Source: a bacterium (GTDB lineage Bacteria > UBA8248). Taken from it: DNA of 64,000 nt. The DNA lies in assembly GCA_965204535.1 (NCBI GenBank), contig OZ241996.1:928001-992000 (forward strand), written 5' to 3'. Below are positions 51,745 to 56,749 of the stretch, piece by piece. The notes below the pieces were generated by a model. It was given only the letters and a program-made list of their open reading frames with translations. It was not told the DNA's origin and ran no database searches. How positions within the stretch are numbered: the first letter of the stretch is position 1; each line of letters begins with the position of its first letter. The translations under genes were made by a program, and so were the position numbers.

Positions 51745-52402
51745 GGGGTCAAACGCCAGCGAGAAGCGAGCGTTTGACGCGATTGAGGAAACCAACCCCT
51801 CTCGCTCTCTCTCGCCTTGAAAAGCAACCCCCCCTCGTCAGGGGACAAAGGCAACCCCCCCTACCCCCCCTTGTCAGGGGGGTAAAAAAGGCCGACGCCC
51901 CGGCAAGTGGAGGATATGAAAAAAGCCGACGCCCGCCGCCGGGCCAGGGGTTTTGATTTTTCTTACCCCCCTGTCAAGGGGGGGTAGGGGGGGTTGCCTT
52001 TATACCTGACAATGGGGGGAGTGAATTCCCGAACGACAAGGCTCCCGTAGGGGCGGCCCCCTGTGGCCGCCCGTATCGAAGATGTCTGCGCCCGCGGCCG
52101 CCCCACATCAGGACAGGCACGGGGGCCACGGACAGGCACGGGGGCCTGTCCCTACGGTGAACAATTCGATGATCGGGATTCCTTCCCCACCGGAGGGTTT
52201 TTCAACAGCCCCCTCAAGGGGGGAGTGATTCCCGAACGACAAGGCTCCCGTAGGGGCGGCCCCCTGTGGCCGCCCGTATCGAAGATGTCTGCGCCCGCGG
52301 CCGCCCCGCATCAGGACAGGCACGGGGGCCTGTCCCTACGGAGCCCCGAAACGCTCCCTCCCCAATCGCGTCAAACGCTCATTCATCAATCGGGTTTGAC
52401 CC
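51745..52402. repeat. Composite repeat cluster including two copies of the RAYT-related REPIN
   Basis: TCAAACGC...GTTTGAC hairpins, TTGTCAGGGGGG pair, REPINs at ~52047 and ~52250. Confidence 0.85.
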
Positions 52403-52484: not shown

Positions 52485-52517
52485 TTGACAAAAGCGGAAA
52501 ACTTGCCGCACTATCAT
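52485..52517 (+). promoter_or_regulatory. Putative sigma70 promoter for the lipoprotein leader
   Basis: Perfect TTGACA at 52485 after an A-rich tract; weak -10 candidates CACTAT/TATCAT. Confidence 0.4.
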
Positions 52518-52689
52518 GGAAGTCAAGGAATACGCGAGAGTAGTCGCCTTCAGGGCCGCCCGCTCGAAGCAACGCGGATTTCTCCCGGAAGACGGAGCGG
52601 GCGGAAGCCCACGGGAGGAGCCTGCTCTCACGAATCGCCTGACAGCCCGGAAGACGACGACCCAGAAGGTTCCGGGCGCTTGCAGCAGA

Positions 52690-53240
52690 CATCACGAGGC
52701 CAGAGGACTCAACCCACGGCGAACCACGCCACCCATCCCCTCCAGTCTCGTGAACGGCAAGGCCCGGCGGCCCGCGCAGCAGGCGGCGCTCAGGCCGGGA
52801 ACGGCAAGCCCGGCGAAAGCCGGAAGACGGAATATCACGAGGCCAGAGGACTCAACTCATGATGCGCCACGCCGCAAATCCCTCTCCAGTCTCGTGAACG
52901 ATTCAGGGCAAGGCCCGGCGCGAGCCTGAAACGAAAAATTCGGCTCGGGGCCAGGAAGTTTTTTATCGCGAGGCTGGAGGACTCAAACATCATGAATCCT
53001 GACCAGAATCCCACACCAGTCTCGTGGATAAGCCGGCCACCGGCCCGGGCGCGTGAGTCCGGGTCGGCGGCCGCGCGCTCCGGCCCCGGTTCGATGAAAC
53101 GATGAAACGATAGAAGCCCGAAAACGAAGGATAAGGAAAGTCGGAAAGTCAAAGAAAGGAGGTCGAATCCGAACACTTCAAAGTTTTGTTGGTTGCAAAG
53201 CTCTTTAATATCACGAGACTAGGAGGACTCAAAAGTGATG
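52690..53240 (+). promoter_or_regulatory. Repeated RBS-like/anti-SD hairpin units in a long 5' leader
   Basis: ATCRCGAG..GAGGACTCAA at ~52691, 52834, 52965, 53210; complementary CCAGTCTCGTG arms at ~52742, 52886, 53016. Confidence 0.7.
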
Positions 53241-54848
53241 AAACTCACCAGCAACAAAATCTTTTCATTCATGCTGGCGGCGGCCTTCGCGCTGACGCTG
53301 GCCGGCTGCGGCGGCGGTGGCGGCAGCACTACGCAAACGCCGACCGATATGCCCGACCCGCAAGCGGCATGTGAAGCCGATGGCGGCGAATACAGGGACG
53401 GGACTTGCGTCACGGCCGCAGAACTGACGGCGGAGCGCATGGCTTCGCAGCGCATGGCCATCGACACGGCGATCGATGCGGCCGAAACCGCGGTTGCCGG
53501 GATCGACGACGATTCCACGGATTCGGAAGTCACCGCCGCCAACATGGCGGTCGCGGCTGCCCGGACGGCGATCTCGGATGCGGCCGATCTTCCGCAGGCC
53601 GAGAAGGACGCGAACACCGGAACGGTCGACGCGATTGCCAACCGGCTCTCTGCCGCCCTGGAAAGCCGCATGGCCGCCATGGACGATGAGCAGAAGGCCG
53701 CGGATGCGGCCATGATGGCGACGGCCCTGAAGCTGCACGCGGGCCTCGAGCACGGCCTTGGCGATACCGACAACGTCCGAACCGGCGCAAGTGACGCCGA
53801 CGGCGTCATCAGCGTGACTATCGGCACGGCCAACGCCGTCCCACTGGCGGAAGACAAGGATACGACGGTCGCCGCCAACCACGGCTGGACAGGCAAGAGG
53901 CACACGGCCGAGCCCACGGGTGATGTCGGCACGTACGAGGCGTATGTCTACTCGAACGTCGGCACCGGGACGGAGGGCGACCCGTTCAATGAAGAGTACA
54001 CGCTGAACGCAGACGGCGAAACAGGGGATATCACTGCCCTCGCTGGCTATGTTACGGGCCGCGTCGCCAGCCCGAACTTCGACCAGTCCGCCGGCAGCAA
54101 ACTATTCAAGTTGCCGACCAATGCGGTCCGGGTGCTGGTTGCCGGCAGCTATCACGGGGTGTCGGGCACCTATTACTGCACCCCCACCAGCGGTGAGACG
54201 TGCTCCGCTACCATAGCCGTAAGCGGTTTCACGCTTGCGGGCGGGACCTGGTCGTTCAAGCCCACCACCGCGACGGCCAGGGTCACGACCGTGGCGGACA
54301 CGATTTATGCTTCCTACGGCTGGTGGCTCCACAAGTCCGAGGACGGCAACACCTTCACCGCGAGCGCTTTCGCGACGGCCAGGGGCACCGTCCCGGCCGC
54401 CACGGGCATCGATACCCTGCGTGGAACGGCGACATACATGGGCGGCGCCGCCGGCAAGTACGCGCTCCACAGCGCCACCGGGGGGACGAACGACGCCGGC
54501 CACTTCACCGCGCGGGCGACGCTCGAAGCCGATTTCAACGCCGACATGATCACGGGCACCATCGACCAGTTCATGGGCGCGGACGGTGAGTCTCGGAACT
54601 GGTCCGTCGAGTTGAAGAAGTCCGGCGTCGGCGCTGGCGGGGCCATTACCGGTAGCGACGGCACCGGCGATCCGATGCAGACGGTCTGGACCATCGACGG
54701 GACGGCCGCGGCCGCCGCCGGCCAGTGGTCCGGTACTCTCTACGACAACGGCGACGACGGCGTTCCGAAGGTCGGGACCGGCACGTTCCATTCGACGTAC
54801 AGCACGTCCGGCAGGATGGTCGGCGCGTTCGGCGTGGACAAGCAGTAG
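53238..54848 (+). CDS. Surface lipoprotein with TbpB-like C-terminal beta-barrel
   Basis: Lipobox LAGC + polyG, Ala-rich helical stalk, YGWWL, ATYMGGAAGKY, LEADF, C-terminal GAFG. Confidence 0.8.
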   Translation: MKLTSNKIFSFMLAAAFALTLAGCGGGGGSTTQTPTDMPDPQAACEADGGEYRDGTCVTAAELTAERMASQRMAIDTAIDAAETAVAGIDDDSTDSEVTAANMAVAAARTAISDAADLPQAEKDANTGTVDAIANRLSAALESRMAAMDDEQKAADAAMMATALKLHAGLEHGLGDTDNVRTGASDADGVISVTIGTANAVPLAEDKDTTVAANHGWTGKRHTAEPTGDVGTYEAYVYSNVGTGTEGDPFNEEYTLNADGETGDITALAGYVTGRVASPNFDQSAGSKLFKLPTNAVRVLVAGSYHGVSGTYYCTPTSGETCSATIAVSGFTLAGGTWSFKPTTATARVTTVADTIYASYGWWLHKSEDGNTFTASAFATARGTVPAATGIDTLRGTATYMGGAAGKYALHSATGGTNDAGHFTARATLEADFNADMITGTIDQFMGADGESRNWSVELKKSGVGAGGAITGSDGTGDPMQTVWTIDGTAAAAAGQWSGTLYDNGDDGVPKVGTGTFHSTYSTSGRMVGAFGVDKQ

Positions 54849-55069
54849 CAGCGAAGAGCACGACGCCTCAGGCTTCCGGGGCTTCACGGCCCCGGGGCCG
54901 GGGCGTGTGTCTGATAAGCAAGTCGGAAACAGGAAAGGGCAGGTTGCCGGGAAGGAGCGAGTGACCTTTGGGGGTTACTCATTGGTTGCTCTACATCGTC
55001 GGGAGCAAATTGTACCGGCCCATTCTACAGAGTTTGAGTCCTCTCGGTGTGGGACGGGAACAATGAGTA

Positions 55070-55276
55070 ACCCCCAGCCACTGCCGGCTCGTATGGGAGG
55101 GGAACAATTCAAACGCTCGTTCATCAATCGCGTTTGACCCCCAACCACTGCTATCGTATGGGAGGGGAACAAATCAAACGCTCATTCACCAATCGCGTTT
55201 GACCCCCAGCCACTGCTATCGTGTGGGAGGGGACAAATCAAACGCTCATTCACCAATCGCGTTTGACCCCCAGCCA
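55070..55276. repeat. Tandem repeat, three units of 64-67 bp
   Basis: ACCCCCAGCCACTGC-like starts at 55070, 55137, 55202, 55266; each unit holds TCAAACGC...GCGTTTGA. Confidence 0.9.
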
Positions 55277-55330
55277 TTCCTATAGCTGGTTTCCCGGCGT
55301 TTGGCAACCCCAGGCAGGACGGATTCGAAG

Positions 55331-55362
55331 AGGCGGTCCCGGAAGAGGGGCCGCCTTTTTTT
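55331..55362 (+). terminator. Intrinsic terminator-like hairpin
   Basis: AGGCGGTCCC-GGAAGA-GGGGCCGCCT followed by a T run. Confidence 0.6.
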
Positions 55363-55502
55363 GTTGGGTGTGGGAAAATCCTCCTCGGCCGGAATTGACC
55401 ACCGCCGTGGTTTCGGCCACCGACCCCGTAGGGGCGGCCCCCCGTGGCCGCCCTGCCCCCTGTGGCCGCCCCGCCCCCCGTGGCCGCCCGTGTTGAAGGT
55501 GT

Positions 55503-56099
55503 CTACGCCCGGTTTGCCGGGTTGTATTCATCGAGCGCCCATTTCAATGGGTTGTTCCGGATGTATTCCCGGATGCGGTTCAGATCGTCATCGCCCCGGA
55601 TGACGCGGTCGTAGAACGATCGTTGCCATAGTTTCTTGTCAAACGGTTTCCATTCACCATCCTTGACGTTCGCCATGTATCTATGGGTCGTCAAGGATTT
55701 GAACCGATGCACAATGTCGGATAACGACATCGTAGGGACAACCCCCCGTGGTTGTCCCACCCCCCGTGGTTGTCCCGCCCCCCGTGGTTGCCCTGCATCA
55801 GGACAGGCACGGGGGCCTGTCCCTACGGTTCCGCGGGGAAATTCGTTTCCCGTAATAACGATGACGCCGTGGACGTGATTGGGCATGACCTGAAATTGAT
55901 CCGTCTCGACACCGCGATAGAATTCCGGCAATTCATTCCAGGTTCTTTCCACCATCCGCCCCGCCTCGCTCAAAACTATCTCACCGCCGATGATTTCACC
56001 GAACAATTCTTCTCTGCTTTGCGCGCAAATCGTCACGAAATAACACCCATCTTCTGAATAATCGCATCCCTCCAACCTGTTCGCCTTCCTGTCTTTCAT
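55503..56099 (-). CDS. REP-associated tyrosine transposase (RAYT, IS200/Y1 HUH family)
   Basis: DYS..G.YFVTIC, VMPNHVHG (HUH), FKS, WQRSFYD, EYIRNNP; GTAG REPs on both flanks. Confidence 0.9.
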   Translation of the reverse strand: MKDRKANRLEGCDYSEDGCYFVTICAQSREELFGEIIGGEIVLSEAGRMVERTWNELPEFYRGVETDQFQVMPNHVHGVIVITGNEFPRGTVGTGPRACPDAGQPRGAGQPRGVGQPRGVVPTMSLSDIVHRFKSLTTHRYMANVKDGEWKPFDKKLWQRSFYDRVIRGDDDLNRIREYIRNNPLKWALDEYNPANRA

Positions 56100-56121
56100 T
56101 TCCAGGAACCCCGTTTTTCAT

Positions 56122-56442
56122 TCCGGCCACCGACCCCGTAGGGGCGGCCCCCCGTGGCCGCCCGTCGGTCGTATTCACCTCGATACAGGAAAGACACAAA
56201 GGGCCCCGGACAGGCACAGGGGCCTGTCCCTACGGGCGGTGAGGTTTCCGCTCGATATCGATCCCGTAGGGGCGGCCCCCCCGTGGCCGCCCGTGTTGAA
56301 GATGTCTACGCCCGTGGTCGCCCCACATCAGGACAGGCGCGGGGAGGACAGGCACGGGGGCCTGTCCCTACGGTTACGTCCTGCCGATGTGGAAATATAA
56401 TCCCGTTGCGTGGCGTACAGGCGCAGAGGCCTGTCCCTACGG
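56122..56442. repeat. REP/REPIN cluster upstream of the RAYT
   Basis: GTAGGGGCGGCCCCCCGTGGCCGCCC and GGACAGGCACRGGGGCCTGTCCCTAC pairs. Confidence 0.88.
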
Positions 56443-56449
56443 AGTTCGA

Positions 56450-56749
56450 CTACCTGGTTCGTTTGATGAGTTCGCGCAGGGAGGCCATGGCCTCCTCGTG
56501 CCTGCGGACGCCGTCTTCCTCCCTTCGGCGGATATCCTCCATCGCCTCCTCGTGCCTGCGCTTGGAATCTTCCTCCCGGCGGCGGGATTCGGCCATCGCC
56601 TCGTCGTGTTTGGCCATCGCCTCAAGGTGCTTGCGTTCCGAATCGACGGTGCGCATGGCGGCGTTCCTGTCCATCGTGCGGATGCCGTGGTAGATGAGGC
56701 CGAGGCCGCCGTAGGAGGCGATGAGGTTGAGGTATTCGTACGTCGTCAT
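56450..56749 (-). CDS. Small membrane-anchored coiled-coil protein with HxEAM repeats
   Basis: Short hydrophobic N-terminus; KHLEAM, KHDEAM, RHEEAM x2; GC-rich third positions. Confidence 0.65.
   Translation of the reverse strand: MTTYEYLNLIASYGGLGLIYHGIRTMDRNAAMRTVDSERKHLEAMAKHDEAMAESRRREEDSKRRHEEAMEDIRRREEDGVRRHEEAMASLRELIKRTR

What the first reader, a model, noticed from the sequence alone, without database searches (positions are those of the whole stretch)
52485..53240. Leader made of repeated copies of the downstream gene's ribosome-binding region, each locked in a hairpin
Seen: TCACGAGGCCAGAGGACTCAA (52692, 52835), TCGCGAGGCTGGAGGACTCAAA (52966) and TCACGAGACTAGGAGGACTCAAAA (53211), the last being the real RBS before GTGATG. 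Copies 1-3 are followed ~45-50 nt later by (CT)CCAGTCTCGTG arms that base-pair with them; copy 4 has no arm of its own. The arms' reverse complement TCACGAGACTGGAG matches the real RBS region better than copies 1-2. Copies 2 and 3 head short uORFs (52859..52897 MMRHAANPSPVS; 52992..53105, 37 aa). A further stem CGCGAGAGTAG/CTGCTCTCACG lies at 52533/52622, after a TTGACA. The motif does not occur in the REP clusters. Inference: an undescribed multi-stage translational switch (alternative pairing or uORF coupling), an array of processed anti-RBS sRNAs or protein decoys, or repeated operator/recombination sites controlling a surface antigen.
Basis: partly seen in the sequence, partly recalled or inferred. 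Interest (0 to 1): 0.8.

Follow-up and report, generated by a model that had tools for sequence, protein, structure and literature searches.

The report
RNA-locked default surface-antigen leader
In a sponge-dwelling bacterium, the long leader of a surface lipoprotein gene repeats its own ribosome-binding region in hairpins that match a previously undescribed two-loop RNA element lying behind about fourteen related genes with flippable promoters, so this RNA likely shuts the default surface protein off whenever a variant is switched on.

Summary
The leader holds three hairpinned copies of the gene's ribosome-binding region, occurs once in the genome and is conserved in 11 other species, with 1, 3 or 4 units. 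Fourteen dispersed paralogous lipoprotein loci, most behind invertible promoters (13 off, 1 on), end in a ~107-nt three-way-junction RNA (no Rfam match, strongly covarying). Its two loops are complementary to the two halves of the repeated site. Perfect two-loop sites number 5 in the genome (shuffled mean 0.09), all in leaders of two lipoprotein genes. The window gene's own 3' RNA has a different loop that fits a third, Slam-linked paralog. In a relative lacking that RNA, the site carries the other base. Best reading: the RNA binds the copies, blocks their short uORFs and frees arms that fit the true ribosome site better, giving hierarchical, mutually exclusive surface-antigen expression. This is Salmonella fljA or Bacteroides UpxZ logic done by RNA. 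No RNA data exist, and equilibrium folding locks the site even without the RNA, so the switch must be kinetic. The scan's index showed no earlier record of this.

The parts
52485..52514 (+). Predicted promoter: -35 hexamer at 52485-52490, -10-like hexamer at 52509-52514 (18-nt spacer)
   Evidence: Sequence; conserved in the 12 aligned leaders. Missed by the consensus scan. Start site not measured.
52522..52643 (+).
   Evidence: z -3.8; 9 of 18 consensus pairs change on both sides in 15 sequences; relatives; no Rfam family
52691..52713 (+). Copy 1 of the two-part target/ribosome-binding region (no ATG in this genome)
52739..52753 (+). Arm 1: pairs with copy 1, and more strongly with the true site
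52834..52856 (+). Copy 2
52859..52897 (+). uORF 2 (12 aa), stop codon inside arm 2 (arm 52884-52897)
   Evidence: the same frame and stop recur in relatives
52965..52987 (+). Copy 3
   Evidence: needs one G.U with loop 1
52992..53105 (+). uORF 3 (37 aa), reads through arm 3 (arm core 53016-53026)
   Evidence: read-through in frame in 11 of 11 leaders that have this last unit (33-47 aa)
53155..53163 (+). Conserved Shine-Dalgarno-like purine run without a start codon; role unexplained
   Evidence: also in the paralog leaders
53210..53233 (+). True two-part target and ribosome-binding site
   Evidence: the 19-mer is invariant in 11 other genomes
53238..54848 (+). Surface lipoprotein, 536 aa: lipobox, helical stalk, C-terminal TbpB/fHbp-like beta domains; body replaced between relatives
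   Evidence: no Pfam hit; model pLDDT 90; Foldseek E 5e-6 to fHbp/TbpB, TM 0.2-0.55; synteny
54871..54899 (+). GC hairpin after the stop codon, no U tract (possible processing/stabilising hairpin)
   Evidence: sequence; shared with paralogs
54968..55078 (+). Class B two-loop RNA (three-way junction); loop 1 at about 54992-55001, loop 2 at 55030-55043; fits the leader of paralog G000:C2:792.3-792.6 kb
   Evidence: z -4.4; no Rfam family

Best explanation
The leader is likely the receiver of an RNA lock: a two-loop RNA, encoded behind each phase-variable paralog and likely co-transcribed with it, would pair with the repeated copies and so likely switch this default surface lipoprotein off. Shown from sequence: the copies, arms and uORFs; the RNA family and its fold; the two-loop complementarity; the invertible promoters in both orientations. 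Inferred: during transcription each arm is trapped by its own copy (and is cleared by ribosomes on the short uORF), so the true site, made last, starts free and the gene is on. When a paralog's promoter flips on, its 3' RNA kisses the open loop of a copy, takes over the 5' strand (G-C where the arm offers only G.U) and blocks the uORF. The freed arm then pairs with the true site (A-U at that position); the RNA can also bind the true site directly. Several units give a slow, Hfq-independent RNA several chances before the true site exists. The gene's own 3' RNA in turn would silence a third, Slam-linked paralog, giving a hierarchy: variants > this gene > that gene.
For: RNA family: 16 forward copies in G000 (14 class A, 1 B, 1 C), found in 16 of 22 other genus genomes and 1 of 28 genomes outside the genus; 96% of cells paired, 22 of 30 pairs with two-sided change, far above slid controls (on a model-fitted alignment). 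Targets: perfect 7+9 pairing gives 5 sites genome-wide for class A (copies 1, 2, the true site, 2 sites of the third paralog; 0 of 300 loop-1 shuffles reach 5, mean 0.09) and 2 for class B (both in the third paralog; 0 of 300, mean 0.04). The class B site occurs in 13 of 23 genus genomes, twice in 12 of them, controls 0. In G004, which has class A and C but no class B RNA, the orthologous site has the base that fits class A/C. Leader: 37 units in 12 genomes, 295 of 296 core cells pair, the G.U is kept in 34 of 37, and 29 of 37 arms prefer the true site; 28 of 30 ATGs are in frame with the arm. All 12 genus genomes with the leader have the RNAs; the 6 without RNA show no leader cluster. Promoters: 13 off/1 on in G000, 9/1 in G002, 1/1 in G003, 0/1 in G014; flanks collinear and 188 bp inverted between an on and an off locus; divergent recombinase ORFs at 6 of 15 loci, one confirmed as PF00589. 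No Hfq or CsrA found.
Against: Nothing is tested at the RNA level. Equilibrium folding pairs the true site with an arm (8-11 bp) in 12 of 12 leaders even without the trans RNA, and blocking a copy changes little, so the on state rests on an untested kinetic or ribosome effect. The leader stems show no two-sided change in their 8-bp core; 8 of 37 arms prefer their own copy; 7 of 37 units lack an ATG. G042 (another genus, 98% complete) has the third paralog's site but no RNA was found; G024 has an RNA but no clear target. In a permissive G.U energy scan, shuffled loops give equally strong best sites, and class C does not rank the copies among its top 8 of 311. Guide-target covariation rests on one base change and on the A/B loop difference. 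Guide limits were chosen after seeing the leader. Flipping within a population was not shown.
Confidence: 0.58

Rival explanations
1. Same RNA partners, different use of the copies: the RNA represses by binding the true site directly, and the copies are decoys that soak up leaky RNA from the off loci (a threshold), or extra sites for decay or Rho-dependent termination. The arms only tune access.
For: Class A loops bind the copies more strongly than the true site (-33 to -36 against -30 kcal/mol). The third paralog also has a duplicated site in 12 of 13 genomes without an obvious long arm. Unit number varies 1-4.
Against: 29 of 37 arms fit the true site better than their own copy, and the true site keeps the base that suits the arm, so occupying a decoy should lock rather than protect the site.
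Confidence: 0.2
2. The leader is a cis-only timer or attenuator (uORF translation and slow refolding limit output). The 3' elements act in cis on their own mRNA's ribosome site through loop 2, or are processing signals, and the match to this leader reflects shared ancestry.
For: Loop 2 pairs with every paralog's own ribosome site (about -15 kcal/mol). Equilibrium folding locks the site unaided. uORF frames are conserved.
Against: Loop 1 never fits the cognate gene but fits another locus: class A fits this leader, class B fits the third paralog. Class C RNA has its own promoter and no gene in G000.
Confidence: 0.1
3. The sites act as DNA: recombination or inversion sites for cassette exchange, or targets of an RNA-guided DNA-binding protein.
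For: The gene body is replaced between relatives while the flanks stay 84-94% identical. The ribosome site and loop 2 form a short inverted repeat around each gene. Recombinase genes lie at several paralogs.
Against: No inverted gene among the G000 loci that carry the element or the 12 leader loci. The two guide parts lie in swapped order and about 30 nt apart, so they form no continuous repeat. Stems depend on G.U. No TnpB/Cas12f found. The recombinases have their own lox-like sites at the promoters.
Confidence: 0.07
4. The leader is cut into small RNAs whose arms act in trans as anti-RBS RNAs.
For: Units are separable hairpins with A-rich linkers.
Against: The only strong target of the arms is this same transcript, and a dedicated trans RNA family already exists.
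Confidence: 0.05

Closest known systems
Salmonella hin-fljBA-fliC phase variation
   Same: An invertible promoter drives a variant surface protein plus a co-transcribed downstream repressor that blocks translation of the default gene (PMC2652032, passages read).
   Different: There the repressor is a protein and there is one variant. Here it is a 3' RNA, about 14 dispersed variant loci share it, the target leader has a multi-unit relay, and there is a second tier.
Bacteroides fragilis UpxY/UpxZ capsule hierarchy
   Same: Many invertible loci, one constitutive locus, and a hierarchy of cross-inhibition (PMC11685472, passages read).
   Different: Protein-protein inhibition of antitermination, not RNA-RNA pairing at ribosome sites.
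Multicopy Hfq-independent sRNAs such as Listeria LhrC (abstract read); two-loop kissing sRNAs RNAIII-rot and OxyS-fhlA (recalled)
   Same: Multicopy RNA with CU-rich sites that blocks translation of a surface protein without needing Hfq.
   Different: Those are stand-alone stress-induced genes. Here the RNA rides on the variant's own transcript, one scaffold carries different loop-1 sequences for different targets, and the target repeats the site with built-in arms.
Plasmid antisense systems Inc RNA-repY/repZ (ColIb-P9) and CopA-tap-repA (recalled, no call)
   Same: Loop-loop pairing blocks a leader peptide and changes long-range pairing at the main ribosome site.
   Different: Those RNAs are cis-encoded, fully complementary and have one site.
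TldR RNA-guided repressors (abstract of 10.64898/2026.09.22.753285; listing)
   Same: An RNA encoded with one paralog silences another paralog of a surface or periplasmic protein.
   Different: TldR needs a TnpB-derived protein and binds DNA with one contiguous guide; no such protein was found here.

Membership tests
Any Rfam family (leader, D0, two-loop RNA) | Match at or near the gathering score | tested here: not met
   only weak hits far below threshold
hin-fljBA-type phase variation | Invertible promoter before the variant gene | tested here: met
   (comparative; flipping within a population not shown)
hin-fljBA-type phase variation | Co-transcribed repressor protein (FljA) | tested here: not met
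   A non-coding structured element follows the variant genes; FljA itself was not searched for
hin-fljBA-type phase variation | Default gene repressed after transcription | not testable with these tools
   Predicted from complementarity only
UpxY/UpxZ hierarchy | NusG paralog and anti-UpxY gene heading each locus | tested here: not met
   Loci inspected hold promoter, leader, lipoprotein(s), RNA, and at 6 of 15 a divergent recombinase
Trans-acting base-pairing sRNA | Conserved structured RNA with exposed loops complementary to a target ribosome site elsewhere | tested here: met
Trans-acting base-pairing sRNA | Expressed as a discrete RNA that represses its target | not testable with these tools
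Csr/Rsm decoy RNA | CsrA/RsmA in the genome | tested here: not met
   (genome 95.7% complete)
TldR / TnpB guide RNA | TnpB-derived protein present | tested here: not met
IS110 bridge RNA / TIGR | Guide parts pair with opposite DNA strands (recalled) and lie beside their recombinase or Tas gene | tested here: not met
   Both loops fit the same (mRNA) strand. Of 5 IS110 hits only one lies near an RNA copy, about 1.5 kb away.
Slam-dependent surface lipoprotein (TbpB/fHbp-like) | Lipobox plus C-terminal beta-barrel fold | tested here: met
   no Pfam match
Slam-dependent surface lipoprotein (TbpB/fHbp-like) | Slam exporter in the genome | tested here: met
   The single PF04575 hit lies directly behind the third paralog; export itself untested

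The most novel reading that the evidence does not exclude
A natural programmable RNA logic circuit: one 107-nt scaffold whose loops are re-written to address different ribosome sites, and a leader that works as a multi-unit strand-displacement relay, together enforcing a three-tier hierarchy of surface antigens in a sponge symbiont with no regulatory protein (or with an unknown protein that reads the conserved junction). Tandem class C copies with varied second loops would be a small guide array.
Probability: 0.35. Interest if true: 0.95.

Novelty: new variant of a known kind. Interest (0 to 1): 0.85.

Why it matters
How bacteria with many independently flipping promoters show one surface antigen at a time is known mainly from protein solutions (FljA, UpxZ). 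This would be an RNA-only solution, in an uncultured sponge symbiont, with a new RNA family whose target can be read from two loops. It is testable in E. coli with reporters and compensatory changes. A natural, Hfq-independent relay that converts slow RNA binding into a lock on a site not yet transcribed would also be a usable design for synthetic regulators.

Tried and rejected
Rfam searches of the leader, the 3' RNA and six related loci found no family. The promoter scan missed the proposed promoter and found no terminator. Sequencing runs: no RNA holder listed, so nothing on expression; uneven contig depth in run X3 was not used. The opposite-strand joint at the on promoter carries the differences of a paralogous off locus, so it is no evidence of flipping. 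A perfect class C site upstream of a zorA-like gene occurs in only 3 of 23 genus genomes (one of the three is a different site) and was dropped as the conserved target. No target found for the G024 RNA. No RNA found in G042, G041 or G026. 33 viral pattern hits all failed the covariance model; 14 of 14 metagenome hits passed and were class A or B. The permissive energy scan did not separate real from shuffled guides by best energy. Equilibrium folding did not show a switch. No long identical tracts indicating recent gene conversion into this locus (longest 75 bp). CsrA, Hfq and TnpB were not found. Literature searches showed no description of this system in titles and abstract starts; subscription journals and supplements were not covered. 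The scan's index gave nothing relevant. A within-window chance estimate for the motif was not obtained; the genome-wide null stands in.

Full report
Observation. The motif occurs 4 times in the 4.56-Mb genome, all in this leader. The unit hairpins have z-scores of -3.2 to -3.7; the true site has none. Public contigs confirm the sequence. Two of 11 related records are labelled Nitrospinota, and 13 of the 23 runs holding the stretch or part of it are labelled sponge metagenome, most at a small share.

The gene. 53238-54848 encodes a 536-aa lipoprotein with no Pfam match. The model (pLDDT 90) resembles fHbp, TbpB, NHBA and HpuA (E about 5e-6, low TM-scores over the whole length). The genome's one Slam gene lies behind a paralog. 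It belongs to a large paralog family.

The leader is conserved. The 19-base true site occurs once in each of 11 other genomes. Their leaders hold 1, 3 or 4 units, 37 in all with the window. In the 8-bp stem core 295 of 296 cells pair, all variation is one-sided, and a G.U at position 7 is kept in 34 of 37; the true site has A there, so 29 of 37 arms fit it better than their own copy. 30 of 37 units have an ATG after the Shine-Dalgarno copy and 28 of these are in frame with the arm. Inner units stop inside the arm; the last unit reads through. The locus is syntenic (flanks 84-94% identical in 6 loci compared), but the gene body is different each time, 509-1352 aa, sometimes two genes, and often closest to another G000 paralog. 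The 5' domain D0 begins just after the -10 box and its basal stem covaries, which fits a start near 52520; the start is not measured.

The partner. 126-181 nt behind the stop codon of the paralogs lies a ~107-nt element. G000 has 16: 14 class A, this gene's class B and a stand-alone class C with its own promoter. It folds as a three-way junction with two loops; on 55 distinct sequences 96% of cells pair and 22 of 30 pairs change on both sides, well above slid controls, though the alignment was fitted to the model. Rfam has no match. It was found in 16 of 22 other genus genomes and in 1 of 28 genomes beyond the genus. Loop 1 of class A is complementary to the 5' half and loop 2 to the 3' half of the repeated site. 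Requiring perfect 7+9 pairing gives 5 sites in the genome: copies 1 and 2, the true site, and two sites in the leader of a third paralog (C2:792.3-792.6 kb); 0 of 300 loop-1 shuffles reach 5 (mean 0.09). Copy 3 needs one G.U. Class B gives 2 sites, both in the third paralog (0 of 300). Class C with one G.U gives 3 sites: copies 1, 2 and one before a zorA-like gene (2 of 300). The guide limits were chosen after seeing the leader, and a permissive G.U energy scan is much less clean: class A ranks the four sites 1, 2, 3 and 5 of 251, class B ranks its two sites 2 and 3 of 301, class C does not place the copies in its top 8 of 311, and shuffled loops reach similar best energies.

Cross-genome tests. 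The class B site is in 13 of 23 genus genomes, doubled in 12, with zero control matches. G004 has class A and C RNA but no class B, and its orthologous site has the one-base form that fits class A/C. This is a single event. G042, another genus, has the same form and no RNA was found there. G018 has the class B site but neither leader nor class B RNA was found in its 280-contig draft. All 12 genus genomes with the leader have the RNAs, and the 6 without RNA show no leader cluster; 5 have RNA but no leader found, 3 of them fragmented. Class B RNA follows the leader locus in 11 of 12 cases; the twelfth contig ends. Kin are not independent, so these counts are descriptive.

The variants are phase-variable. 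Most class A loci have a ~190-bp promoter segment between lox-like inverted repeats. Pattern counts give 13 off and 1 on in G000 (one off promoter precedes a different lipoprotein type), 9 and 1 in G002, 1 and 1 in G003, 0 and 1 in G014, and only off forms in three more; the patterns missed the other genomes. An on and an off locus have collinear flanks and an inverted 188-bp interior. Divergent recombinase ORFs lie at 6 of 15 loci (PF00589). Flipping within a population was not shown.

Mechanism (inferred). The RNA has the same polarity as the arms, so every RNA-level route gives repression: it can cover the true site, block the uORFs, or free an arm. Blocking copy 1, 2 or 3 in silico sends that arm to the true site (8.6-11.8 bp). 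But the unblocked leader is also predicted to lock at equilibrium (8-11 bp in 12 of 12 leaders). The on state must therefore be a kinetic trap from co-transcriptional hairpins, helped by uORF ribosomes. That would explain the repeats: with no Hfq found, several upstream sites let the RNA pre-arm the lock before the true site is made. I put this at 0.58, the decoy or direct-binding use of the same RNAs at 0.2, a cis-only role at 0.1, DNA-level roles at 0.07 and processed leader RNAs at 0.05.

Comparison. It works like Salmonella fljBA-fliC (PMC2652032, passages) and the Bacteroides UpxZ hierarchy (PMC11685472, passages) but lacks their proteins. The RNA resembles LhrC in being multicopy and Hfq-independent (abstract). 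TldR systems silence paralogs with an RNA guide but need a TnpB-derived protein (abstract), not found here. Inc RNA-repY, CopA-tap, RNAIII-rot, OxyS-fhlA and bridge-RNA geometry are recalled, not checked. Seven searches (listings only) showed no description of this system. Verdict: real, conserved, a new variant of a known logic built from an undescribed RNA family and leader architecture; interest 0.85.

Noticed in passing
window 52522-52643; G000:C2:1231.5-1231.7k(-), C2:2470.2k(+), C1:178.8k(-), C2:1318.2k(+), C2:2778.8k(+): The D0 domain is a covarying 5'-terminal RNA motif without Rfam match that starts several transcripts for secreted or lipoprotein genes and the class C RNA; candidate stabiliser, antitermination signal or riboswitch.
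   Followed up: partly
G000:C2:1231.0-1231.8k(-) (L155): One paralog lacks an invertible promoter. Its leader has D0, its own 14-nt anti-ribosome-site arm and a decoy; a second hairpin behind most class A RNAs carries a 13-nt segment complementary to this leader, suggesting a second guide domain.
   Followed up: partly
L072-L082 (e.g. G006:C7:478.1-478.6k): Class C RNAs often lie in tandem pairs or triples about 185 bp apart; the upstream copy keeps loop 1 but has a different loop 2.
   Followed up: partly
G000:C1 first and last bases; C2:2944.4k: The two ends of contig C1 join exactly inside a promoter inverted repeat whose spacer equals that of a C2 locus: an assembly break at a flipping site or recombination between loci.
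   Followed up: no
G000:C2:792.0-796.2k (L022): The third paralog sits directly before the only Slam gene and has repeated short hairpins before its ribosome site; probably the ancestral locus, present also in another genus (G042).
   Followed up: partly
G000:C2:1628.6k(-) (L023): A perfect class C two-loop site lies before a zorA/zorB-like defence operon (identification by eye); same site in G002 only, a different match in G011.
   Followed up: partly
window 53155-53163: A strong Shine-Dalgarno-like run with no start codon is conserved about 75 nt before the start in this leader and in the paralog leaders; possibly a ribosome standby site.
   Followed up: no
G000:C2:376.5k(-): One class A paralog is frameshifted near its start.
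   Followed up: no
window 55503-56099 and REP clusters around 51850-52340, 55100-56450: IS200-like (Y1, REP-associated) transposase and dense REP-type repeats flank the locus.
   Followed up: no
L089, L090, L091: Class B-type RNAs also occur at loci away from the leader gene in G011, G035 and G013.
   Followed up: no
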